Below, piece by piece: positions 2,500-24,559 of a stretch of DNA of 28,372 nucleotides (the stretch's first letter is position 1; the number at the start of each line of letters is the position of its first letter). Below the pieces are notes generated by a model. That model searched no databases. It worked only from the letters and a program-made list of their open reading frames with translations, and was not told where the DNA came from. A program made the translations under genes and the position numbers. Source of the stretch: a virus (Duplodnaviria > Heunggongvirae > Uroviricota > Caudoviricetes). The stretch is from IMG/VR virus record IMGVR_UViG_2734482782_000001, positions 1-28,372 of that record. One strand, given 5' to 3'.

Positions 2500-3153
2500 T
2501 TAGCCTCCCAGAGGTTTTGTATTGCTGCCGCCGCTTTCCACACCGCCATGCGTATGCTTATCAACGATTGAGCCATCCACCAGCTGCAGGCGGCCGTCAG
2601 ACAGAATTTTCAGGCCGTTCAGGTTGAACCCTCCCGGCGCGGTACCGGCTATAGCCCCACTTGAAGGATTAAGGCTCAGTTTGGTTCTGCCATCGTCGCT
2701 GCGCAGCTCAACCGCGCTGCCGCTGATGCCGCTGATTTTCTGCGCCTGCGACTGCGGTCCGACGATACAGAACGCATCCGATAAATCATGCACCCGGTCG
2801 TCGACAGGCTCCTGCACCCCGCCGTTCTGCCACCAGAAATCGATGCAGCGATCGGCGAAAATCACCAGGCATTCATCACCGGCTTTCACCGGGAACGTTA
2901 GCGTGCAGCCGCCGCCGCGTGGAAATATCACCGGCACATCCACCAGCAGCGGGTAATTTTTGGTAACGCGGTTGCCGTCGTTATCCGTTTCAACCGAACG
3001 AATAGCTGGCTGCACAACCGCCGTAACCGCGTCATGGTCGAATGACTGAACGATGCCAGGCAAAGCGACTCGGAGCTGGTTCTTTGTTGTGTCCCGCTCA
3101 GATTTGAATGTTTCGGCGAGGTCGCCGCTTCGGGTCTGGTCAGATACTGCCAT
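2500..3153 (-). CDS. Baseplate assembly protein V / central spike-like
   Basis: The track ORF 2500-3174 begins with TTG inside the terminator flank. The in-frame ATG at 3153 (MAVSDQTRSG...) is preceded by GGAGCC at good spacing, so I prefer that start. Size and position fit gpV-like. Confidence 0.6.
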   Translation of the reverse strand: MAVSDQTRSGDLAETFKSERDTTKNQLRVALPGIVQSFDHDAVTAVVQPAIRSVETDNDGNRVTKNYPLLVDVPVIFPRGGGCTLTFPVKAGDECLVIFADRCIDFWWQNGGVQEPVDDRVHDLSDAFCIVGPQSQAQKISGISGSAVELRSDDGRTKLSLNPSSGAIAGTAPGGFNLNGLKILSDGRLQLVDGSIVDKHTHGGVESGGSNTKPLGG

Positions 3154-3172
3154 TTGGTAGGCTCCAGAAAGC

Positions 3173-3198
3173 AAAAAACCCGCCGGGTGGCGGGTTTT
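3173..3198 (-). terminator. Rho-independent terminator closing the AT-rich cargo operon
   Basis: Plus strand reads AAAAAACCCGCCgggtGGCGGGTTTT: a GC stem CCCGCC/GGCGGG with a 4-nt loop. On the minus-strand transcript the stem is followed by a U6 run, directly after the stop of the 131-aa gene. Confidence 0.75.
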
Positions 3199-3217: not shown

Positions 3218-3613
3218 TTAAACAGCTTCGTCAGTCTTCATTTTTTCCCACTGAGAAAAAATAGTCTTAACCTCTAAGAGAGATTGCTGTGCCATTGCTT
3301 TATCAATTGCACAGCTAGTGAGGTCATAATCAGCTTCATTTCGAGCCAATCTCTGTTGCTCAAGTTTGTAAGCCATGGATTTTAGGCTTAATGGATCATA
3401 TGGCTCCAGTTTGTTTTCACTCTTATTTTTAAGATAAGAGATAAGGCTGGAATGATGATCCTTCGTATAAGCAGGAAGACTGGTCAGATTCTCTTTTATT
3501 TCATGGTAAAGCGCATAATATGCTCGCGAAATAGTATTACGATAACCAACCTCAGAATCTTCCGCAAAGCAACGCTCCGCAGAAGATAAAAATTCAGAGC
3601 TAGTTATAGGCAT
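3218..3613 (-). CDS. Hypothetical cargo protein, 131 aa, HEPN-like motifs
   Basis: ATG start with AAGGGTG RBS; overlaps the upstream 256-aa gene by 14 nt. About 35% GC by eye. Contains R30-x6-H37 (RAYYALYH) and R91-N-x3-Y96 (RNEADY), reminiscent of the HEPN Rx4-6H signature. Not confirmed by HMM. Confidence 0.7.
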   Translation of the reverse strand: MPITSSEFLSSAERCFAEDSEVGYRNTISRAYYALYHEIKENLTSLPAYTKDHHSSLISYLKNKSENKLEPYDPLSLKSMAYKLEQQRLARNEADYDLTSCAIDKAMAQQSLLEVKTIFSQWEKMKTDEAV

Positions 3614-4370
3614 ATTTACACCCTTTCAAGCTATTTCTTTCAACGGAAAAACGTGCAATAAGATTGCAATCATCCAGTAAATCGATTGAACAAATTTCAT
3701 CTGCAAGTCGCATATTCATTGCAACCACCTGCTCAGGGGATGCATTGACTACCTCAACCAGATAAGTCCCACCAGATGCACCGTTGATGTCAGCACGATA
3801 TTCAGTTGGCGGGAATTCAGCCATAACTCTATGAACAGCAAGAGCAACTTGCATGTATTGTTCTGAAGAGCAACCTGACTTTTTGTATGCTTCATCCATA
3901 TCGTGAATTACCTCCTGCAAGAAGGCTTCTGCGTCATCCCTATGTTCTTCTTGGGATAACATTTTGCAATGACGTCCAAAATATTCTACGCATTTTGATA
4001 GTTTCCCTACCAAATATGCAACGCCACCAGCCCTGTAAGTAAACCACTTGGTTGGATACTTATCAGCTAAAGAATAGATGTAGTAGTCCGATTTTTCGAG
4101 TAGAGAAAAACGCTCAAGCAGCTTACAAAAAATCCGCGCAAAGTTAACGTCAGCATGTGGGAGGATAGCTTCAAGCATTTCTATCCCGACACTCACCTCA
4201 CCTTTTGCAATATGAGCCAAAGCTACAAGCGTGTCAGCAGGCGGAGTATGCTTAGAGCCATATTCCGAAACCACCTCTCGAAAGGTCCAAATATCAAGAG
4301 GTTGACCACTATTGATTATCTTAACCAACTGGTCAAAACGCTCTTCCGCTTTCAGTTTTGGTCTTGCCAC
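3600..4370 (-). CDS. Hypothetical cargo protein, 256 aa, no recognisable motifs
   Basis: Long ORF in the AT-rich island. The first start codon after the in-frame upstream stop is GTG at 4370 with a weak SD, so the start is uncertain. No P-loop or nucleotidyltransferase motif seen. Confidence 0.65.
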   Translation of the reverse strand: MARPKLKAEERFDQLVKIINSGQPLDIWTFREVVSEYGSKHTPPADTLVALAHIAKGEVSVGIEMLEAILPHADVNFARIFCKLLERFSLLEKSDYYIYSLADKYPTKWFTYRAGGVAYLVGKLSKCVEYFGRHCKMLSQEEHRDDAEAFLQEVIHDMDEAYKKSGCSSEQYMQVALAVHRVMAEFPPTEYRADINGASGGTYLVEVVNASPEQVVAMNMRLADEICSIDLLDDCNLIARFSVERNSLKGCKYAYN

Positions 4371-4399
4371 AGTACGCTCGCTACTTATCTTTTGGTTGA

Positions 4400-4429
4400 A
4401 TTTTATGTTCGCGTATACAGTTTAGTCAA
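4400..4429 (-). promoter_or_regulatory. Candidate sigma70 promoter for the 256-aa/131-aa cargo operon
   Basis: On the minus strand: -35 TTGACT (4429-4424), 18-nt spacer, -10 TAAAAT (4405-4400), about 30 nt upstream of the GTG start at 4370. Confidence 0.45.
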
Positions 4430-4490: not shown

Positions 4491-4838
4491 TCAACCTGGC
4501 ACTTTCTTACACGGGAAAGAGCCGATGATTTTCGGCGCGTCCATGCTGTTCTGCAGCAGTTGGACGTTCAGGAAACGCGTTTCGGTACCAGGGCGATGGA
4601 TATACTCAAACCCATAGTTGTTGCCATCTTTAGCAGGCATTAGACCCATTTTGATCTGCATGCCTGTACCGTCTTTGCCCAACATTTTAACCTTTTGGGA
4701 TGTTACGGTTTCGCCATTGATTTTAAACAATGAGTCAGGGATCGCGTCCATACGAAAGTTACCACATTGCATCGTTATAGTGTTTGCACTTGCGCCAACA
4801 GACGCTAACGCCAGCAATGAAAAAATCCATCGTTTCAT
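4491..4838 (-). CDS. Small secreted protein with Sec signal peptide (cargo)
   Basis: The track ORF starts further upstream, but the internal ATG at 4838 gives MKRWIFSLLALASVGASA|NT..., a classic n/h/c signal peptide with an A-S-A cleavage site. GAGGGGG RBS sits 10 nt upstream; the start lies 2 nt after the hub stop. About 40-48% GC. Confidence 0.65.
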   Translation of the reverse strand: MKRWIFSLLALASVGASANTITMQCGNFRMDAIPDSLFKINGETVTSQKVKMLGKDGTGMQIKMGLMPAKDGNNYGFEYIHRPGTETRFLNVQLLQNSMDAPKIIGSFPCKKVPG

Positions 4839-4840
4839 TT

Positions 4841-5905
4841 CTATAACCCCCTCTGCAATGCAGTGCTCGATGGCATATCCTGCGCGCCACGCGCTTCGCA
4901 CATCATATCCATATACCACGCTTGGCCCCTTGTGTCGCCAGTGTACATAATCCCACGCACAATATAAACGCCATCCGTTGCGATGCTGGCAGGCTGCGCC
5001 GTGGTACCGCTGAGCGTGATATTGCCGTCTGTATTCTGGTCGGTGATGCGGCCCCCAGCCATCGCGATATCGTTGTTCGACAGTGCGGTGCGGAATACCG
5101 AAGCCTGATCCAGCTGAATGAGTCCGTTAACCCGGATGTTCGGGTTTATCAGCGCACGGACGTTCACGCCGTTGCCGATGGTCTGCTGCGGCATGCCGAT
5201 AAGCCCGGTGGCGCTGTTGAGCACAATCGCGTCGTGAACATACTCGTTATTCGCCACCATCTGGCGCTGGCCGTCCACGAACTGCCATGTTGCGCCACAT
5301 TGCCCGGCCACGTTATCCATAAGATGCCGTGTCATGCCGAACAGCACCCTGCCCCGGGGAAAAACGGTAGCAGGCATTTCAGGCGTCAGGCCTTCGGTCG
5401 CGCCTTTGGCCTCGAAGTCTTTCATCAGCGCGCGGTTCACGTCTGCGACCGTATAACCGGCCGCCAGCGTCTGCGAGGTTATGCTGGTGGCAAAGGCCAG
5501 ATCTGTATCGGCTGCCTGAATCAGGACGTAGGAATCAATGGGGCTGTCTTTTCCTGTGACCGAGTAACGAATTTCGCCGCTAAAAATCAGACCGTAGTTC
5601 CGGCCATCACTCTGGCCCACGTCCGCCGCGTCAACCTCCCGCACGGTCCCGACGTCGCTTGCCGATACCTCCGGCGCGATACCGTCGTAACCGGCAATTA
5701 GCCGCACCTTAGAAAACTCCTGCCCGGTGATGCGGTTCACCGTATCTGCCGAGAGGTTGTAGATTTTGAACGTTCCCACCCGGGACGCGCTGCTGATGTT
5801 GAACCAGTCGATCGTAAAGGTCACTTTAAAATCGCTGAGCTCAATACCCTGCCCGTTCTCGTCCACGAGCTGCAGCTCGAAATGTCTCATCCAGTTCTGC
5901 GACAT
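4841..5905 (-). CDS. Baseplate hub / tail protein (P2 gpD / Mu gp44-like position)
   Basis: 354-aa ORF, ATG start, high GC, placed after the tape measure and small tail proteins. Confidence 0.55.
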   Translation of the reverse strand: MSQNWMRHFELQLVDENGQGIELSDFKVTFTIDWFNISSASRVGTFKIYNLSADTVNRITGQEFSKVRLIAGYDGIAPEVSASDVGTVREVDAADVGQSDGRNYGLIFSGEIRYSVTGKDSPIDSYVLIQAADTDLAFATSITSQTLAAGYTVADVNRALMKDFEAKGATEGLTPEMPATVFPRGRVLFGMTRHLMDNVAGQCGATWQFVDGQRQMVANNEYVHDAIVLNSATGLIGMPQQTIGNGVNVRALINPNIRVNGLIQLDQASVFRTALSNNDIAMAGGRITDQNTDGNITLSGTTAQPASIATDGVYIVRGIMYTGDTRGQAWYMDMMCEARGAQDMPSSTALQRGL

Positions 5906-6210: not shown

Positions 6211-6797
6211 TAGCCGAGCCCCAGTAATGACGCCGCGTTACCCGTGATGCTTTTCAGCAGCGAGGTATTTGGCGGCTTTGTGGTTTTGGTGCCGGTATTC
6301 AGTACCGCCGACGTGCTGGCCCCGTCCTTCATGTTGGTTTTATCCGCGACGGTGATCTGCTGCGTCTGCGAGATAAGAACCTCCCTCAGGGTGAGGACGG
6401 CGGACAGGACGTTTTCGGTTGTCTTGTCTGTCGTCACTTCCATCGCGCGGATCAGCATGTTGCTGTACAGCCGTTTGCCGGTCACCACATCGAAAGGGAT
6501 ACGGCTCGCCTGCAGGTCGAGTATCTCCTGATACGTCTGCTGGGGGCTCAGACCGAGCAGACTGGTGGCCGTCAGGTTACTGGCAAAATCCAGCAACGAT
6601 CCGCCACCAGCGAAACCGACCTCCATCACCACTTCAGACGGTTTTTTGTAGGCATGGTCAGCGATAGCGGCCCCGACCTCGACAGGGTGCTCTGTTATCT
6701 CCAGCGTGTCGGTATGCTTCTCAGAAACAACCACACTGGGGACAATCATCCCTATTTTCCGGCTCTGCTGCTGAAAGAGCGTAGAGAGAATATCCAT
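6210..6797 (-). CDS. Tail protein downstream of the tape measure
   Basis: 195-aa ORF, ATG start, TAATG coupling with the TMP stop. Confidence 0.5.
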   Translation of the reverse strand: MDILSTLFQQQSRKIGMIVPSVVVSEKHTDTLEITEHPVEVGAAIADHAYKKPSEVVMEVGFAGGGSLLDFASNLTATSLLGLSPQQTYQEILDLQASRIPFDVVTGKRLYSNMLIRAMEVTTDKTTENVLSAVLTLREVLISQTQQITVADKTNMKDGASTSAVLNTGTKTTKPPNTSLLKSITGNAASLLGLG

Positions 6798-8806
6798 TAG
6801 CCCACCTTCGTTTGATTACCGCGCATGACCTGGGCGTTTGCCGACTGCTGCCGACGCTCGACCTCGGTACCGACAGAACGCGGGTCACCACCACCGTAGA
6901 TGTGATAGGTGTTTTGTTGCTGTACCTGCGCTCCCTTCCCGGGCATGTTACTCAACACCTTAGGAATGTAGTTGCGGGTTTCCTGCGGCATCAGGGCCAT
7001 TCCGTGCTTCTGCACGTTCCCGATCCCCCAGTTGTATGAGGCCAGCGCCTTGCTCAGGTCACCACCGTTAGCTTTCAGCAGCTGTGAGAGATATTTAGCA
7101 GCGGCCTGCGCGGCCTTTTCAGGATTGAATACGTCGTTCCCGCGCAGTCCCATATCACGCGCGGTACCGTCCATAAACTGAAACAGCCCTTTAGCGCCAG
7201 CGCCTGAAACAGCGAACTGATTTCCGCCCGATTCCGTTATGGCCACGCTGCGCAATAACCCCTCCGGAAGCCGATAGAGCTGCTCCAGGTTGGTTAGCAT
7301 GGGCTGCATCCATCCCAGCAGCTCAGAGCCCGCTTTGGTTGGCTGTGGCCGCTTGACTGACTGGCCGAGCTGTTCAGGCTCATCATCACCAAACCAGCCG
7401 CGCACCGTTCGGCCCACACTGCGAGGATCGAATCCCCAGTGCTCTTTAATCCAGTCGGCGGTACCGTTGGCGCTGTCTGTTACCATCGGCATCGCTGACG
7501 GATTTTCGCTGCCCTGATTGAGCATCTGTTTGCCGATGCTGGCGGCATCAGCCCAGCGGCCATCTTTAATGGCGTTGAGCAGGTCGGCGATCATATTCAG
7601 CATTTTGCTGAACTCGCCCATCTGGTCCCTGAAGTTGCTGAAATCCCACTTCAGGGACCATGATTTGGGGTCAATATTGAGCAGTTTCGCCAGCGCTTTC
7701 GCAAGGTCGTTAACGGTCGTTTTAAGGTCACGAACCATCTTCAGCGCGGCGTCGACTTCCGGTTTCCACTTGCCCCAGTCGATAAGGCTGTCGCCGCCCT
7801 CCTTCCAGGTCTGATAGTCCTCCCACAGAAGGGCAATCCCCGCCGCCAGCGCGGTAATAAGGCCAATCGGCGACATCCAGAACGTACTGTTCAGAATGCG
7901 TAGCGCAATCGTCAGCGCGCCAAACAGCGAGATCAGCTCCCGCGTTTGCTTGTCGAGTGATTGCCACCAGGTGATAAGGCTGGATGTTCCCTCAATAAGC
8001 CTGAAGAACAGCCGTCCGATGATGTCCCCGAGTGCCAGAATGCCTTTTATGGCTTTCGTCAGGGTCTGCTCGATACGCGGGAAGTTATCCAGGATATGAC
8101 GGCGCAGCGTGTCCAGCGAACCCGCCAGGCCACCAGCAAGATTAGAGCCGATTTTGTCACGGGCCATGCCTGCCATCGCGCCGAACTCGCGCAGGGAGGT
8201 CATGAATTTGTTGGAGCTTCTGGCCGCCTCGTCAGCATTGAAGCCGATAGCCTTCGCCATTGCGCTGTACTGCCCGGAGAAACCGCCAACACCCCGGCGC
8301 ATCGCCATGAGGGTATTTTCGTCAATGCCCAGCATCTGCGCATACTGGTTAGCCCGGTAGTACGGCATGCTGCTGAGCTTCTGGCCGACACCCGTAAAGA
8401 TAGCGGCCATATCGCGCATGTTACCGCTGGCGTCACGGGTCTGTACACCCAGGCGATTCAGGAAGCCTTCCGCACCCGGATTGTTACGAACAAACCGGGA
8501 GAGGCTTTCCAGAGAGGAGCGCGCCGCGTCTACGCTGCCGCCTACCTGCGAAACCGCATAGCCAATAGACTGAATCCCCTGAACCGTCGCGCCGGTGCGC
8601 TGTGACGCCCAGTAGAGATTATCCAGACCGGAGGCGATTTTAGCCGTAAAGGCCACCACAGTAAGCGCGGCACCTTCGACGGCCAGCCCCATTTTGATGG
8701 CGTTTGCGGTCGTACCTGCGAGAACTGAATCGAACTTTTCCGCGCCTGCTTCGTCGATATCGAAACCGAGCGAGACGAGAAAATCTTTAATAGTCTCAGC
8801 GTTCAT
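6797..8806 (-). CDS. Tail tape measure protein with C-terminal lytic transglycosylase (SLT)-like domain
   Basis: 669-aa ORF, ATG with GGAGAGAGG RBS. Alanine/glycine-rich helical N-terminal half, a hydrophobic segment (LISLFGALTIALRIL...GLITALAAGIALLW), and a C-terminal ...AITESGGNQFAVSGAGAKGLFQF...YNWG segment resembling SLT catalytic motifs. Lies downstream of the chaperone with frameshift. Confidence 0.75.
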   Translation of the reverse strand: MNAETIKDFLVSLGFDIDEAGAEKFDSVLAGTTANAIKMGLAVEGAALTVVAFTAKIASGLDNLYWASQRTGATVQGIQSIGYAVSQVGGSVDAARSSLESLSRFVRNNPGAEGFLNRLGVQTRDASGNMRDMAAIFTGVGQKLSSMPYYRANQYAQMLGIDENTLMAMRRGVGGFSGQYSAMAKAIGFNADEAARSSNKFMTSLREFGAMAGMARDKIGSNLAGGLAGSLDTLRRHILDNFPRIEQTLTKAIKGILALGDIIGRLFFRLIEGTSSLITWWQSLDKQTRELISLFGALTIALRILNSTFWMSPIGLITALAAGIALLWEDYQTWKEGGDSLIDWGKWKPEVDAALKMVRDLKTTVNDLAKALAKLLNIDPKSWSLKWDFSNFRDQMGEFSKMLNMIADLLNAIKDGRWADAASIGKQMLNQGSENPSAMPMVTDSANGTADWIKEHWGFDPRSVGRTVRGWFGDDEPEQLGQSVKRPQPTKAGSELLGWMQPMLTNLEQLYRLPEGLLRSVAITESGGNQFAVSGAGAKGLFQFMDGTARDMGLRGNDVFNPEKAAQAAAKYLSQLLKANGGDLSKALASYNWGIGNVQKHGMALMPQETRNYIPKVLSNMPGKGAQVQQQNTYHIYGGGDPRSVGTEVERRQQSANAQVMRGNQTKVG

Positions 8807-21066: not shown

Positions 21067-22071
21067 TCAGTCTAAATCCATCTCCACCACTTCACCGAAC
21101 AGGTGACCGTAAACGTCCATTGTGGTTTTGATGTTCGAATGCCCAATAAGTCGGGAAACCTTCAGAATATCGACGCCTTTGTTTGCCAGGCGAGATACAG
21201 CAAAGTGGCGAAGATGATGGAATCGTTTAATGCCATAGTCGTTCAGGGTTCTGACGAGAACGCCCTGAGTGCCGTAGCTGGTAGCAAGGCATGCGCCGGT
21301 AAACTGGTTGCAGATAAGAGGCTCAGAGGTACCGAGTTTACTTTTATCCAGCAACGCGAAAAGCTCACGCGGCATCCGTACCCGGCGCTCCACTCCTCTT
21401 TTCAGCCCCTCATGTATAACGCCGTCAACAACATGCCCCCGGATGTCGATCCAGTCGGCTGACACGTCGTTATAAGTAACAGCCAGAGCCTCACCGATGC
21501 GCAGGCCACAAATCCCGAGCCAGCACGCGATTCGCTCACGAACTGGCGCGTTATTCAGTAGCTCCCTGACCGATGATGATGGCGGTATGGTGATGGGTCG
21601 ACGCTTCCGGCGCGCGGGACGGTCAACAGGGTTAAAAGTGATGAGCCGTTTTTCCACCAGCAGGAAGAAAGCCGAACGAATCCAGCGATGGCAGCCGGTG
21701 CGAACCGAATCAACGATATCGCGATGGCTGATATGGAGAATATTTTTTTCCAGTATCGGCCCGTCTACAGCGAGAAGATCGTGACGGCATTTCGTATATG
21801 ACGACAGCCGTATGATATTTTTTTCCAGCTTGCCGGCCTGATACCCCAGATAAAACAGAATTAACTTTCGGAAAGTCCAGGAATGGTCTATTCCGGTCCA
21901 GCTGGCAGTTCGACAATCCAGCTCGATATTCTGTTTTTGCCAGAAAAGATGTGCGGCATCATCAATATTCTTAAAAATGCGGCGGCGTCCATGACCGGAT
22001 TTTTCATCCTTCCAGTGGACGTAATATTTTGATTGTCCATTGGCATCAGTGGATTCTTTTATCGAAGCCAT
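21067..22071 (-). CDS. int: Tyrosine-type site-specific recombinase / integrase
   Basis: The track starts at TTG 22080; the ATG at 22071 has a GAGGA RBS 9 nt upstream. C-terminal HLRHFAVSRL and GHSNIKTTMDVYGHL match the H-x-x-R and catalytic Tyr pattern of the tyrosine recombinase family. Confidence 0.8.
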   Translation of the reverse strand: MASIKESTDANGQSKYYVHWKDEKSGHGRRRIFKNIDDAAHLFWQKQNIELDCRTASWTGIDHSWTFRKLILFYLGYQAGKLEKNIIRLSSYTKCRHDLLAVDGPILEKNILHISHRDIVDSVRTGCHRWIRSAFFLLVEKRLITFNPVDRPARRKRRPITIPPSSSVRELLNNAPVRERIACWLGICGLRIGEALAVTYNDVSADWIDIRGHVVDGVIHEGLKRGVERRVRMPRELFALLDKSKLGTSEPLICNQFTGACLATSYGTQGVLVRTLNDYGIKRFHHLRHFAVSRLANKGVDILKVSRLIGHSNIKTTMDVYGHLFGEVVEMDLD

Positions 22072-22250
22072 GCTGAACAATCCTCACTCAAAAAACATTA
22101 TCAAAGCCACTCGCCGAATGGATTTGATAATGCTAATAAAAATGTCTCGGAAGCTATCCTTCTGTGCTCCCAATCAAGCTTTGCCGTTGCACCCTCATCA
22201 TATGAAAAAGTTCATGATACATTATGCTTTTATCAACTGAGGTGATCGCG

Positions 22251-22572: not shown

Positions 22573-23118
22573 TTATTTCCTTTCATCCTCTATTTGACGT
22601 ATTCCAGCCAGCTGATTATTCGCTTTTTCGATGGCGGCCAGTAGCGGCTTGATCCAAAGAACAGCCTGGCAATACGTCAGCGAGCTGGTGGAAGCGGCAC
22701 TATCACCGGCTGCGTCAGCGCTCCCGGAATCGGTGTGCATTGCGCTGGCACGTAGACGGTGCGTGTATTCGAGCAGCCCACCAGCGACATCAGCAGGAAC
22801 AGGCAGATCACAGGTTTTTTCACGGCGGAGAATCTCCCGGTACTCCATAACAGTTTTATCGGAGCTGGCATCAATCAATGAGTTAAGTCGGCTGGCGTTT
22901 TCGGCCACCTGGTTAAACCGGTTGAAGTTGAAAGCCTGAGCAGCGATAACCGTCCCCTGCAGGTTGTTGTCACTGCGCAGAACGTCATTATCACTCTTCA
23001 GCGTAGCAACGTCAGAGCGGCTGTTTGCAAGCAGGACACACAGCCCGGCGACTACCGCAATGACGGCAACCAGCAGTATCAGACGCCATGAGGCTTTGAT
23101 ATCTGTAAAGGTGATCAT
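22573..23118 (-). CDS. Rz-like inner-membrane spanin (i-spanin)
   Basis: 181-aa ORF, ATG overlapping the endolysin stop (ATGA). N-terminal TM helix WRLILLVAVIAVVAGLCVLLA followed by a periplasmic helical domain. Last gene of the lysis cassette. Confidence 0.7.
   Translation of the reverse strand: MITFTDIKASWRLILLVAVIAVVAGLCVLLANSRSDVATLKSDNDVLRSDNNLQGTVIAAQAFNFNRFNQVAENASRLNSLIDASSDKTVMEYREILRREKTCDLPVPADVAGGLLEYTHRLRASAMHTDSGSADAAGDSAASTSSLTYCQAVLWIKPLLAAIEKANNQLAGIRQIEDERK
22677..22871 (-). CDS. Rz1-like outer-membrane lipoprotein spanin (o-spanin), embedded in Rz in another frame
   Basis: ORF entirely inside Rz. Lipobox L-V-G-C preceded by a hydrophobic stretch (KKPVICLFLLMSLVGC); proline-rich mature part (PAQCTPIPGALTQPVIVPLPPAR). 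Start codon uncertain. Confidence 0.55.
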   Translation of the reverse strand: MPAPIKLLWSTGRFSAVKKPVICLFLLMSLVGCSNTRTVYVPAQCTPIPGALTQPVIVPLPPAR

Positions 23119-23639
23119 TTCAGACCATCCAGGCAGAGCTGTTTCTCTGCGTCGCGCCGCTTAACCAGGCCCGGGAGAATAGTCTTCCCTGCATACACCC
23201 AGCGGGGGAACTGGTTACAGGCCGATGGCCACGCCGATTTCTGCTCGCGAAATAATGCAAACATTGTCGACTGCTTCATCGTTGGGCACCCGACGTTAAA
23301 GGTAATTGACGTTACCGCAGAAAAGGTATTGTCGCTGAGATTTTTGCCGTTGGCATACCGGTTAACACAGGATTCAGCATCGAGGATATTTTTTTCCCAT
23401 TCCGCCGCGATCTGCTGGTCATTTTTAACTGTGCCGGGTTTAACCCCGTGGGTGTTGCCCATGCCATCGGTGAGCACACCGGCGGGGCACACATAAGGAT
23501 CACGACGACATGATTCCGCATTACCGATGAGCTCAAGGCCGCGCTCATTGGTTCGAACATGCCCGTTACCGAGCACTATCGCGATGATCGCAGCAACTGA
23601 ACAAACAATACCCGCAGCACCTGCCTTTTTATTTTGCAT
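23115..23639 (-). CDS. SAR endolysin (T4-lysozyme-like, phage 21 R-type)
   Basis: 174 aa, ATG start. N-terminal weakly hydrophobic Gly/Ala-rich signal-anchor AGAAGIVCSVAAIIAIVLG, then a lysozyme-like domain. C-terminal RWVYAGKTILPGLVKRRDAEKQLCL resembles the phage-21 lysozyme C-terminus recalled from memory. Confidence 0.7.
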   Translation of the reverse strand: MQNKKAGAAGIVCSVAAIIAIVLGNGHVRTNERGLELIGNAESCRRDPYVCPAGVLTDGMGNTHGVKPGTVKNDQQIAAEWEKNILDAESCVNRYANGKNLSDNTFSAVTSITFNVGCPTMKQSTMFALFREQKSAWPSACNQFPRWVYAGKTILPGLVKRRDAEKQLCLDGLK

Positions 23640-23946
23640 TTGCGTTTATCCTGTTAATGGCATCTGTAACAACCTTGACGCTTGCCGGACGATCCGCAGG
23701 AGGTAATTTTCGGGCATCATCAAAATATTTTTCCAGCAACTGAGTGCGGCGTTGGTCCTCTTTATGGAGTTTTCTGGCGTCAAGCCGACCGGATATAAAA
23801 GAGGCCAGAGAAAGAAGTACGCCAATCAGACCGAAAAACATGAAAACCATGTCCTGGGTTGAAAATCCCAGAGCCGCTGATACAGCTGCCAGCCACGCGA
23901 AAAACTGGGTAATTACATTACCTGACTGGTCATTCATACGATGCAT
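23629..23946 (-). CDS. Holin with dual-start (MHRM) motif
   Basis: 105 aa; two hydrophobic TM segments (ITQFFAWLAAVSAALGF and MVFMFFGLIGVLLSLASFI) and a charged C-terminus. Two in-frame Mets at codons 1 and 4 with a GGAGGT SD. Overlaps the endolysin start by 11 nt. Confidence 0.7.
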   Translation of the reverse strand: MHRMNDQSGNVITQFFAWLAAVSAALGFSTQDMVFMFFGLIGVLLSLASFISGRLDARKLHKEDQRRTQLLEKYFDDARKLPPADRPASVKVVTDAINRINANAK

Positions 23947-24007: not shown

Positions 24008-24559
24008 TTACGGCAGAGCATTTGATAGAGCCTCTTCGAGGCCGAGACGCCGGAAGCACTTAAGCGCTGTCTGGCGGCTGCTGTTGATGATATTTACCTT
24101 ACCGGCCAGCGCTCTGGCAGTATTGGCAAACTCACCGCGCCATCGCGTGACACTCTCTGCTGTAGGGTTATCCAGCCCGACGTGATCACCATGCCAGTGA
24201 CTGCCGCAATTAATGGAGCAGTCAAACCCTAACAGGATGATGTTTTTCGCCCCCAGGCTGGCAGCAAAGAGAATCGAGCGCTGCCCGGAGTTGAAGGCCC
24301 ACCGGGTATCTGTATCAAACAGATTTAGCCCATAGCGTTTATGAGCCCGGTAATTACAGGTCCAGCGAGAGGCGGAGGACGGTAGAACATCGATGTTTGC
24401 ATCCCACCAGCGCAGATCACCCGCGTAAATGTATTCACAATCAGGCACGGCTTGCCAGGTGGAGTTAACAGCAATAACCGGCAGCCCCGATCCGGAGCTC
24501 AGTTCGCAATCTGATTTATTGAGAGACGGGCCGGATGCACAAATGATGAATGTATTCAT
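24008..24559 (-). CDS. Hypothetical cargo protein with GPSL Rossmann-like motif (DUF115 / GT42 glycosyltransferase-like)
   Basis: 183 aa, ATG start. N-terminal IICASGPSL, central ILFAASLGAKNIILLGFD, and HWHGDH; these resemble motifs of CstII-type sialyltransferases / MAF-DUF115 proteins as I recall them. Lies between the tR'-like terminator and the holin. Confidence 0.55.
   Translation of the reverse strand: MNTFIICASGPSLNKSDCELSSGSGLPVIAVNSTWQAVPDCEYIYAGDLRWWDANIDVLPSSASRWTCNYRAHKRYGLNLFDTDTRWAFNSGQRSILFAASLGAKNIILLGFDCSINCGSHWHGDHVGLDNPTAESVTRWRGEFANTARALAGKVNIINSSRQTALKCFRRLGLEEALSNALP

What the first reader, a model, noticed from the sequence alone, without database searches (positions are those of the whole stretch)
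4491..4838. Secreted 116-aa protein translationally coupled to the baseplate hub gene
It has a canonical Sec signal peptide (MKRWIFSLLALASVGASA, cleavage after ASA). Its ATG lies 2 nt after the hub stop, with a GAGGGGG SD inside the hub 3' end, so it is probably made from the late tail transcript. The mature protein is about 96 aa with two cysteines. A periplasmic protein encoded in a tail operon is atypical; it could be a superinfection-exclusion factor, a lysozyme or envelope-enzyme inhibitor, or a host-fitness moron.
Basis: partly seen in the sequence, partly recalled or inferred. Interest (0 to 1): 0.55.

Follow-up and report, generated by a model that had tools for sequence, protein, structure and literature searches.

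The report
Exported small protein after phage hub gene
A small protein that is almost certainly exported to the periplasm is encoded directly after the baseplate hub gene of a SEN34-like prophage. It is a fixed but very variable accessory gene of this phage lineage, and its most likely job, still unproven, is to block entry of related phages.

Summary
The gene is on the minus strand (4838→4491) and encodes 115 aa, about 97 aa mature. It has a Sec-type signal peptide and two cysteines. Its ATG lies 2 nt after the hub stop, 8 nt downstream of a GAGGGGG sequence.

It is not a sporadic moron. It belongs to PHROG 3443 (function unknown; no Pfam, NCBIfam, PADLOC or PDB sequence match).

- A homologue follows the hub gene in every relative examined whose hub is at least 50% identical, except Hafnia phage yong1.
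- More distant tail modules of the same type lack it.
- The start lies within -4 to +5 nt of the hub stop in 32 of 37 loci.

AlphaFold gives a confident small beta-barrel with no specific structural relative.

The gene is under purifying selection but exists as ancient alleles: loci with at least 93% identical hubs carry versions only 60-99% identical. The variable stretch begins inside the last 10-18 hub codons. Two genomes hold tandem arrays of paralogues, one with repeated hub 3' ends. Cargo downstream is highly variable and includes PD-Lambda-1, a YafO toxin and Imm-like and Sie-like proteins.

Best reading (about 0.4): a periplasmic superinfection-exclusion-type protein made with the late tail genes. 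Function is untested.

The parts
4491..4838 (-). Gene for the 115-aa exported protein ('p116'; PHROG 3443), stop codon included
   Evidence: Translation. PHROG 3443 E 3e-51 over the full length. 388 homologous clusters. dN/dS about 0.11. AF2 model pLDDT 86.6, seven strands forming a beta-barrel.
4785..4838 (-). Signal peptide coding part (residues 1-18, MKRWIFSLLALASVGASA)
   Evidence: n-region K2 R3, hydrophobic core, A-S-A at -3/-1. The same properties occur with different sequences in 96 of 117 homologues. pLDDT is low (54-65) for the first 20 residues of the model.
4847..4853 (-). Shine-Dalgarno-like GAGGGGG inside the hub 3' end, 8 nt before the ATG
   Evidence: Sequence read directly.
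4841..5905 (-). Baseplate hub gene (354 aa). Its stop TAG (4843..4841) is 2 nt from the p116 ATG
   Evidence: PHROG 196 baseplate hub E 1e-88; Pfam E217_GP41 E 5.8e-5, below the curated cut-off. Flanked by Pam3_gp18 plug, Dit-like and tape-measure genes.
4841..4898 (-). Hub C-terminal tail codons that belong to the variable cassette (approximate left limit)
   Evidence: Nucleotide identity to four loci with near-identical hubs drops from 93-100% to 30-60% starting 30-58 nt before the hub stop. The hub tail sequence co-varies with the p116 type.
4400..4429 (-). Promoter-like site (TTGACT-18-TAAAAT, 10 of 12) in the 120-nt gap downstream of p116, ahead of the 256-aa gene
   Evidence: Consensus scan. 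This is a pattern match only.
3600..4370 (-). Cargo gene 1 (256 aa, PHROG 17809, unknown function)
   Evidence: GC 42.5% against 57% in the tail genes.
3218..3613 (-). Cargo gene 2 (131 aa, PHROG 5176; weak HEPN-like signals)
   Evidence: PADLOC HEPN_IX E 0.009. PDB 2hsb UPF0332 E 0.31. GC 38%.
3175..3198 (-). Strong intrinsic-terminator-like hairpin closing the cargo region just before the spike gene
   Evidence: 10-bp stem with 6 GC pairs and a T run. An equivalent hairpin precedes the spike gene in L039.
2500..3174 (-). Baseplate spike gene, right border of the variable hub-spike region
   Evidence: Pfam spike N-terminal domain E 6e-43 plus the Apex motif.

Best explanation
SHOWN. The gene encodes a small protein with all the features of a Sec-exported, SPase-I-cleaved periplasmic protein. 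The mature 97 aa are predicted to form a compact beta-barrel. Two invariant cysteines lie on the first and last strands. The gene is a lineage-fixed accessory gene of SEN34-like (Brunovirus-type) temperate myoviruses of Enterobacterales. It always occupies the first position after the hub gene, is translationally coupled to it, and heads a variable cargo region that ends at the spike gene. It is under purifying selection but exists as old, recombining alleles.

INFERRED. The two cysteines form a disulfide that closes the barrel. The protein is made with the late tail genes, and perhaps at a low level in lysogens. In the periplasm it acts as a superinfection-exclusion-type factor. It would bind a part of an incoming related phage's tail tip that becomes exposed after the outer membrane is pierced (hub, tape-measure C-terminus or spike), or a host envelope partner of that tip. 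This would stop penetration or DNA entry. Late synthesis would protect cells near the end of infection from being punctured, and prematurely lysed, by sibling virions.
For: Export: signal-peptide features. Invariant Cys pair on the first and last strands. Variants in the same slot carry a lipoprotein lipobox (P0141, LSGC, gene starting the base after the hub stop).

Accessory rather than structural: homologous tail modules run hub to spike with no gene between them. This is seen in Providencia PSTCR3 and Acinetobacter Ab105-1phi, and for Pam3 gp18/19/20 as described in PMC11633184. In Hafnia phage yong1 most of the gene has been replaced by an unrelated signal-peptide protein, leaving a 23-aa remnant.

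Tied to this tail lineage only: all 37 genome loci found through the protein lie next to hub and/or spike genes. All phage records examined with a hub of at least 50% identity have it except yong1.

Conserved coupling: the start lies within -4 to +5 nt of the hub stop in 32 of 37 loci.

Immunity-like evolution. Locus pairs with at least 93% identical hubs have p116 identity of 60-99%, median 71%. Where hub dS is below 0.4, p116 dS is usually saturated and dN is mostly 0.21-0.40, while dN/dS within an allele is 0.02-0.12. Tandem arrays of 4 and about 8 paralogues occur in L009 and L039.

Neighbourhood: the cargo directly downstream includes PD-Lambda-1 (E 1e-82), PDC-S57, a YafO toxin, a T4 Imm-like 'superinfection immunity' protein (PF14373, PHROG 1039) and a 'Sie-like' exported protein (PHROG 8545).

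Precedents for periplasmic or envelope exclusion proteins aimed at tail-tip functions: T4 Spackle (PMC7677548), T5 Llp (PMC9586334), Ltp (PMC3952083) and the HK97 gp15 moron (PMC3594210).
Against: There is no functional data of any kind.

No promoter was detected that would give expression in a lysogen. Most known exclusion genes are prophage-expressed or early genes.

No sequence or specific fold relationship to any known exclusion protein was found.

p116 identity does not track tape-measure identity (Spearman 0.08) and tracks spike identity only weakly (0.39). No partner is therefore indicated by co-variation, apart from the physically linked hub tail.

The loops of the main subfamily are strongly conserved (NGETVTSQK, MPAxDGNNYGF). 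That fits a conserved target better than an arms race.

The sample of genome loci was found through the protein itself, so 'always after the hub' is unbiased only for the phage-database set.
Confidence: 0.4

Rival explanations
1. Periplasmic inhibitor of a peptidoglycan hydrolase. It would act either on the lytic-transglycosylase domain at the C-terminus of the phage's own type of tape-measure protein (a Spackle-like way of achieving exclusion) or on host or animal lysozymes (PliC/MliC/PhiA-like).
Confidence: 0.15
2. A helper for the phage's own lytic cycle that has nothing to do with other phages. Examples are a periplasmic regulator of lysis timing or a factor that conditions the envelope late in infection.
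For: It is coupled to a late structural gene and no independent promoter was found. It is fixed in the lineage and under purifying selection.
Against: It is not linked to the lysis cassette at 22573..23946. Ancient allelic diversity on identical backgrounds and multi-copy arrays are not expected for a housekeeping helper. It is dispensable in related modules and was displaced in phage yong1.
Confidence: 0.13
3. A host-fitness factor (lysogenic conversion), such as protection of the lysogen against host-animal or insect defences, carried passively by the prophage.
For: GC is lower than in the surrounding tail genes (46% against 57%). The protein is exported. It is present in pathogens and symbionts, including EPEC E2348/69, Klebsiella, Photorhabdus, Pantoea and Yersinia. 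The neighbouring slot carries morons.
Against: The family was found only in this one tail module and always in the same position. It was never seen as a free chromosomal gene or in other phage types. There is no promoter of its own. The same alleles occur across very different host genera. It has no similarity to known virulence or resistance factors.
Confidence: 0.12
4. A virion or tail-assembly component whose hydrophobic N-terminus is not a cleaved signal peptide, for example a membrane-inserting tail-tip protein.
For: It lies in the middle of the baseplate genes, is tightly coupled to the hub and is present in all close relatives.
Against: It is absent from homologous baseplates, including the structurally solved Pam3 type. 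The A-x-A site is typical, the Cys pair is invariant and lipoprotein variants exist, all pointing to the periplasm. Arrays of up to 8 paralogues make no sense for a stoichiometric structural part. It was replaced by an unrelated exported protein in yong1.
Confidence: 0.08

Closest known systems
T4 Spackle (gp61.3), periplasmic superinfection-exclusion protein
   Same: It is small, has a cleaved export signal, a single Cys pair, is phage-encoded and periplasmic. It acts on a tail-tip function of incoming related phages (PMC7677548). This is the closest analogue for the proposed way of working.
   Different: Spackle is an alpha-helical bundle and an early gene, with a proven target (the gp5 lysozyme). 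p116 is an all-beta barrel, sits in the late tail operon, shows no sequence relationship, and has an unknown target.
T5 Llp, phi80/N15 Cor and Streptococcus TP-J34 Ltp: exclusion lipoproteins
   Same: They are exported phage proteins that block entry of the same kind of phage. Llp and Cor are encoded next to tail or receptor-binding genes. Lipoprotein versions of the p116 domain exist in the same slot (P0141). References: PMC9586334, PMC3952083.
   Different: The window protein has no lipobox. There is no sequence similarity. Llp and Cor mask an outer-membrane receptor, whereas p116 is linked to the hub and not to the very variable fibres.
HK97 gp15 and other morons inside tail operons (lambda lom and bor)
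   Same: They are accessory envelope proteins embedded among tail genes. gp15 blocks DNA entry in a tape-measure-dependent way (PMC3594210).
   Different: Morons are autonomous units with their own promoter and terminator and a patchy distribution. p116 has neither signal, is coupled to the hub gene, and is fixed in its lineage.
PliC/MliC and Brucella PhiA periplasmic peptidoglycan-hydrolase inhibitors
   Different: There is no profile match. The fold match is generic. The conserved inhibitor loops of MliC/PliC, as I recall them, are not present.
Orphan toxin-tip/immunity cassettes of CDI and Rhs systems
   Same: In L009 a conserved 3' piece of the upstream gene (261 nt of the hub) is repeated four times. 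Each copy has a different extreme C-terminus and is followed by a different small exported paralogue. The alleles are ancient and recombining.
   Different: The hub tail is only about 10-15 residues and has no toxin domain. No evidence exists that tail and p116 interact. The resemblance is architectural only.

Membership tests
PHROG 3443 (phage protein family of unknown function) | Full-length match to the family profile | tested here: met
   E 3.1e-51, residues 1-114 on profile positions 1-114 of 115. The divergent paralogues and the lipoprotein fusions hit the same PHROG.
Sec/SPase I secreted protein | Positively charged n-region, hydrophobic h-region of 8 or more residues, and small residues at -3/-1 | tested here: met
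   K2 and R3; residues 4-16 have 9-residue hydropathy means of 2.2-2.3; A16-S17-A18. 96 of 117 homologues pass the same test.
Sec/SPase I secreted protein | Positive call by a dedicated predictor (SignalP) or experimental cleavage and export | not testable with these tools
   No such tool or data were available.
Bacterial lipoprotein (SPase II) | Lipobox L-[AS]-[GA]-C at the cleavage site | tested here: not met
   No lipobox was found in the window protein or in any of the 117 close homologues. The longer fusion P0141 has one (LSGC) and P0160 has a similar motif (LVSC).
Moron (autonomous accessory transcription unit in a phage late region) | Own promoter and terminator | tested here: not met
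   The consensus scan finds neither between 4371 and 5100 on the minus strand. It does find both for the adjacent 256/131-aa cassette. The scan covers sigma-70 consensus sites only.
Moron | Patchy presence among otherwise similar phages | tested here: not met
   A family member is present after the hub in all examined relatives with a hub of at least 50% identity except yong1. It is absent only from modules with a hub of 37% identity or less.
Moron | Base composition different from the neighbouring genes | tested here: met
   GC 46.3% (GC3 52.6%) against 56-58% (GC3 68-72%) in the hub, plug, Dit and tape-measure genes.
PliC/MliC lysozyme inhibitors (Pfam MliC family) | Match to the family profile | tested here: not met
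   No Pfam family matched at E up to 10 for the window protein. None was shared among the 42 members.
PliC/MliC lysozyme inhibitors | Eight-stranded periplasmic beta-barrel fold | tested here: inconclusive
T4 Spackle family | Alpha-helical bundle fold and sequence homology | tested here: not met
   The model is all-beta. There is no PDB sequence hit. The Spackle fold is taken from PMC7677548.
Superinfection-exclusion proteins (functional class) | Reduces entry of a superinfecting phage when expressed | not testable with these tools
   This needs infection assays. Only contextual and evolutionary evidence is available here.
Core baseplate or virion protein | Conserved across homologous tail modules, or detected in virions | tested here: not met
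   Hub-to-spike adjacency without this gene is seen in PSTCR3 and Ab105-1phi and in Pam3 (text of PMC11633184). No virion proteomics for this lineage was found.

The most novel reading that the evidence does not exclude
The last 10-15 residues of the hub and the exported protein encoded right behind them form a matched, polymorphic 'key and lock'. In the periplasm, p116 would recognise the hub tail, or another tail-tip part, of incoming phages of its own allele class and stop them. Phage lineages would thereby exclude their own kind. Arrays of orphan [hub-3'-end + paralogue] cassettes would widen the range of excluded types, and would offer spare hub tails that a phage can recombine in to escape exclusion. 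This would be a phage counterpart of toxin-tip/immunity cassette systems.
Probability: 0.12. Interest if true: 0.8.

Novelty: new variant of a known kind. Interest (0 to 1): 0.55.

Why it matters
If the protein is a periplasmic exclusion factor, it would define a new family, unrelated to known ones, that is carried by a common enterobacterial prophage lineage. About 300 of 5,426 complete E. coli genomes match this region, among them EPEC E2348/69, and related loci occur in Klebsiella, Salmonella, Yersinia, Photorhabdus and Pantoea.

It could explain part of the resistance of lysogens to related temperate or therapeutic myoviruses. It would also give a handle on what happens to a contractile tail tip between the two membranes.

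Independently of function, three features make this a well-defined system for studying how accessory genes are exchanged inside structural operons:
- a fixed slot directly after the hub gene;
- a sharp recombination boundary inside the hub's last codons;
- a downstream cargo region that holds known defence genes.

Tried and rejected
Sequence-profile searches gave nothing informative:
- Pfam found nothing for the window protein or shared among 42 family members at E up to 10.
- NCBIfam and PADLOC found nothing for p116.
- PDB profile searches with the narrow and the broadened alignment gave only chance-level hits.

The search of 1.84 billion representatives found only 44 clusters. Giant repetitive proteins among the hits (P0121, P0150, P0162, P0163) look like repeat or composition artefacts and were set aside.

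Co-variation was used to look for a partner. There is no correlation with the tape measure and only a weak one with the spike. The correlation with the hub is explained by linkage and shared ancestry.

I looked for a promoter that could drive expression in lysogens, both inside the hub 3' end and in the L039 array. None rose above chance.

I considered a programmed frameshift fusing hub and p116. The p116 frame is open for 27 codons upstream, and the spacing is congruent to 2 mod 3 in most loci. I rejected the idea because there is no slippery site in phase in the junction sequences I read, and an internal signal peptide would be pointless.

The literature gave nothing on this family, on WP_012578957.1, or on a hub-spike hotspot. 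The Klebsiella phage MMNM paper concerns a different genus.

A complex prediction of p116 with the SLT domain or the hub was not attempted. The tool returns no interface or PAE information and accepts no paired alignments.

Full report
1. THE OBSERVATION

The ORF exists at 4491..4838 but on the minus strand. It has 116 codons including the stop, so the protein is 115 aa.

The upstream gene (4841..5905, minus, 354 aa) is a baseplate hub. It matches PHROG 196 at E 1e-88 and has a weak Pfam E217_GP41 hit. Around it lie genes for a tape measure with an SLT-type domain, a Dit-like protein and a Pam3_gp18-type plug upstream. Downstream lie the spike, sheath-initiator-like, baseplate-J and DUF2612-type genes.

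The hub stop TAG (4843..4841) is followed by AA and then the ATG. GAGGGGG sits at 4853..4847, 8 nt before the ATG.

The N-terminus MKRWIFSLLALASVGASA has two basic residues, a hydrophobic core and A-S-A at -3/-1. The mature protein would be 97 aa with two cysteines.

2. IT IS A REAL, CONSERVED GENE

A search of 5.8 billion proteins found 388 homologous clusters. All named ones come from Enterobacterales and all are 'hypothetical'.

In a 42-member alignment the mature part is well conserved: mean column identity is 67%, both cysteines are invariant, and the loops NGETVTSQK and MPAxDGNNYGF are conserved. The first 18-25 residues vary freely but stay signal-peptide-like. 96 of 117 homologues pass a simple n/h/c-region test; most failures appear to be N-terminally truncated gene calls.

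Pairwise dN/dS is about 0.11, similar to the neighbouring plug gene. The family is PHROG 3443, function unknown. It has no Pfam, NCBIfam, PADLOC or PDB sequence match.

An exhaustive HMM search of 1.84 billion representatives found only 44 clusters, so the family is small.

3. STRUCTURE

AlphaFold2 with the family alignment gives a confident model: mean pLDDT 86.6, and above 90 for most of the mature part. It has seven long strands, consistent with an up-and-down barrel. The two cysteines lie on the first and last strands. I infer, but could not measure, a barrel-closing disulfide.

4. GENOMIC CONTEXT: A FIXED GENE AT THE HEAD OF A VARIABLE REGION

The window is the late region of a SEN34-like temperate myovirus. 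It carries a Q-like antiterminator, holin/endolysin/Rz genes, terminase and the tail genes. A near-identical arrangement is present in EPEC E2348/69.

In 37 genome loci retrieved through the protein, and in every related phage record inspected except Hafnia phage yong1, the homologue lies directly after the hub gene. The examined set includes YP3, SEN34, vB_EcoM-606R2, Mulock and Klebsiella prophage-derived phages. Hub identity in this set ranges from 50 to 99%.

In 32 of 37 loci where the start could be called, it lies within -4 to +5 nt of the hub stop.

A 292-aa variant with a lipoprotein lipobox and a C-terminal p116-like domain sits in exactly the same place.

More distant modules of the same architecture go straight from hub to spike. 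These are Providencia PSTCR3 and Acinetobacter Ab105-1phi, and Pam3 gp18-gp19-gp20 according to PMC11633184. Burkholderia BgManors32 has an unrelated opposite-strand gene there.

In Hafnia phage yong1 an unrelated protein with a signal peptide has replaced most of the gene, leaving a 23-aa remnant.

The gene is thus accessory to tail construction but fixed in one enterobacterial lineage. The position seems to be a slot for exported proteins.

5. THE DOWNSTREAM CARGO

The stretch between p116 and the spike ranges from 19 nt (no cargo, 9 loci) to about 2 kb. The one exception is L039, where that space is filled by the paralogue array. It holds 29 unrelated gene clusters in 42 loci.

These include the defence gene PD-Lambda-1 (E 1e-82), candidate PDC-S57, a YafO toxin, a T4 Imm-like 'superinfection immunity' membrane protein and an exported 'Sie-like' protein.

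In the window the cargo is a 256-aa + 131-aa pair. It has a promoter-like site, 38-42% GC and a strong terminator just before the spike gene. This is a textbook moron.

p116 has no such signals and an intermediate GC of 46%.

6. EVOLUTIONARY PATTERN

Locus pairs whose hubs are at least 93% identical carry p116 versions that are 60-99% identical, median 71%.

Where hub dS is below 0.4, p116 dN is mostly 0.21-0.40 and dS is usually saturated. The exceptions are pairs that share the same allele. Within an allele class dN/dS is 0.02-0.12. These are old alleles moved around by recombination, not fast in-place divergence.

The break in similarity is sharp and starts 30-58 nt before the hub stop. The last 10-15 hub residues therefore travel with p116, and tail type and p116 type co-vary across genera.

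In Pseudescherichia vulneris (L009) a 261-nt hub 3' end occurs four times at a spacing of 613-634 nt. Each copy has a different tail and stop and is followed by a different paralogue.

In Serratia aquatilis (L039) about eight paralogues, plus an IS-type transposase, fill the hub-spike gap.

p116 identity does not follow tape-measure identity (Spearman 0.08) and follows spike identity only weakly (0.39).

7. INTERPRETATION

Shown: an exported-type, beta-barrel, lineage-fixed accessory gene, coupled to a late structural gene, polymorphic through ancient alleles, sometimes amplified, and sitting next to defence and exclusion cargo.

Inferred: it works in the periplasm against incoming related phages (superinfection exclusion), by analogy with four known systems:
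- T4 Spackle, which is small, periplasmic, has one disulfide and blocks the tail lysozyme (PMC7677548);
- T5 Llp (PMC9586334);
- Ltp (PMC3952083);
- HK97 gp15 (PMC3594210).

Late co-expression could protect cells late in infection from puncture and premature holin triggering by sibling virions. This step is speculation. I give the exclusion reading about 0.4.

The rivals are:
- a peptidoglycan-hydrolase inhibitor, which could itself be the exclusion mechanism: 0.15;
- a lytic-cycle helper: 0.13;
- a host-fitness factor: 0.12;
- a virion component: 0.08.

The most novel reading not excluded is an allele-matched hub-tail/p116 recognition system with orphan cassettes (about 0.12).

8. NOVELTY AND VERDICT

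The family is catalogued (PHROG 3443) but uncharacterised. I found no paper on it.

As a probable exported accessory or exclusion protein in a tail operon, it belongs to a known kind of phage function. Several of its features are new, however: the family itself, its fixed coupled position after the hub, the boundary inside the hub gene and the cassette arrays.

I rate it a new variant of a known kind, with interest 0.55. The limit is the complete lack of functional evidence.

Noticed in passing
window 3218-4429 (minus strand): A two-gene cassette (256 aa, PHROG 17809; 131 aa, PHROG 5176) with overlapping stop and start. It has a promoter-like site at 4429..4400, a strong terminator at 3198..3175 and 38-42% GC. 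The 131-aa protein has weak HEPN-like signals (PADLOC HEPN_IX E 0.009; PDB 2hsb E 0.31). The same pair is in E. coli E2348/69, and a related 243 + 142 aa pair is in L010 and L014. It may be an undescribed defence or toxin-antitoxin pair.
   Followed up: partly
L009 1-2900 (Pseudescherichia vulneris NZ_BBMZ01000043.1): There are four direct repeats of a 261-nt hub 3' end at a spacing of 613-634 nt. Each keeps an open frame with a different last 10-14 codons and is followed by a different p116-family gene, one of them interrupted by a stop. The layout resembles orphan toxin-tip/immunity arrays.
   Followed up: partly
L039 5446-10334 (Serratia aquatilis CP173186.1): Seven to eight tandem signal-peptide paralogues of the family lie between hub and spike, together with a 402-aa transposase-like ORF on the opposite strand. 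One terminator-like hairpin sits just before the spike gene.
   Followed up: partly
L051 3534-4069 (Hafnia phage yong1 NC_073022.1): The slot after the hub holds an unrelated protein with a signal-peptide-like N-terminus (annotated 3600..4010). It is followed by a 23-aa C-terminal remnant of the p116 gene, so one exported protein has been displaced by another.
   Followed up: partly
L044 8001-8879 (Logan SRR26921863 contig): A 292-aa lipoprotein (lipobox LSGC) has an N-terminal domain of unknown family and a C-terminal p116-like domain. Its gene starts the base after the hub stop. A 263 + 127 aa gene pair follows it.
   Followed up: partly
cargo regions of L004-L043 (between the p116 homologue and the spike): The cargo is highly variable: 29 unrelated clusters in 42 loci. 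It includes PD-Lambda-1 (E 1e-82), PDC-S57, a YafO toxin, a T4 Imm-like PF14373 protein, a PHROG 8545 'Sie-like' exported protein, DUF2335 and a T5orf172 protein. The hub-spike junction is therefore a defence and moron hotspot.
   Followed up: partly
L002 3632-3910 (Salmonella phage SEN34) and L016: The SEN34 homologue is annotated as only 77 aa. The similarity extends further upstream, but the first ATG gives a truncated signal peptide 35 nt after the hub stop. Either the start codon is non-ATG or these copies have lost export.
   Followed up: no
window 4491-4919 and the hub/p116 junctions of 37 loci: The p116 reading frame stays open for 27 codons upstream of its ATG, overlapping the hub 3' end. 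In most loci the hub-stop-to-ATG spacing is -4, -1, +2 or +5, all the same frame offset. This is probably just the usual overlap geometry. No in-phase slippery site was seen in the junction sequences I read.
   Followed up: partly
window 21067-22080 and 24008-24559 (minus strand): An integrase-family ORF (PHROG 1, E 2e-29) lies between the lysis cassette and the terminase genes, an unusual place for it. A 183-aa ORF matches a PHROG labelled alpha-2,3-sialyltransferase (E 3e-51) and lies between the Q-like gene and the holin gene.
   Followed up: no
window 6797-8806 (minus strand): The tape-measure protein carries a C-terminal lytic-transglycosylase (SLT-type) domain at about residues 480-669. 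This is the tail-borne cell-wall enzyme of this phage and a candidate target for a periplasmic inhibitor.
   Followed up: partly
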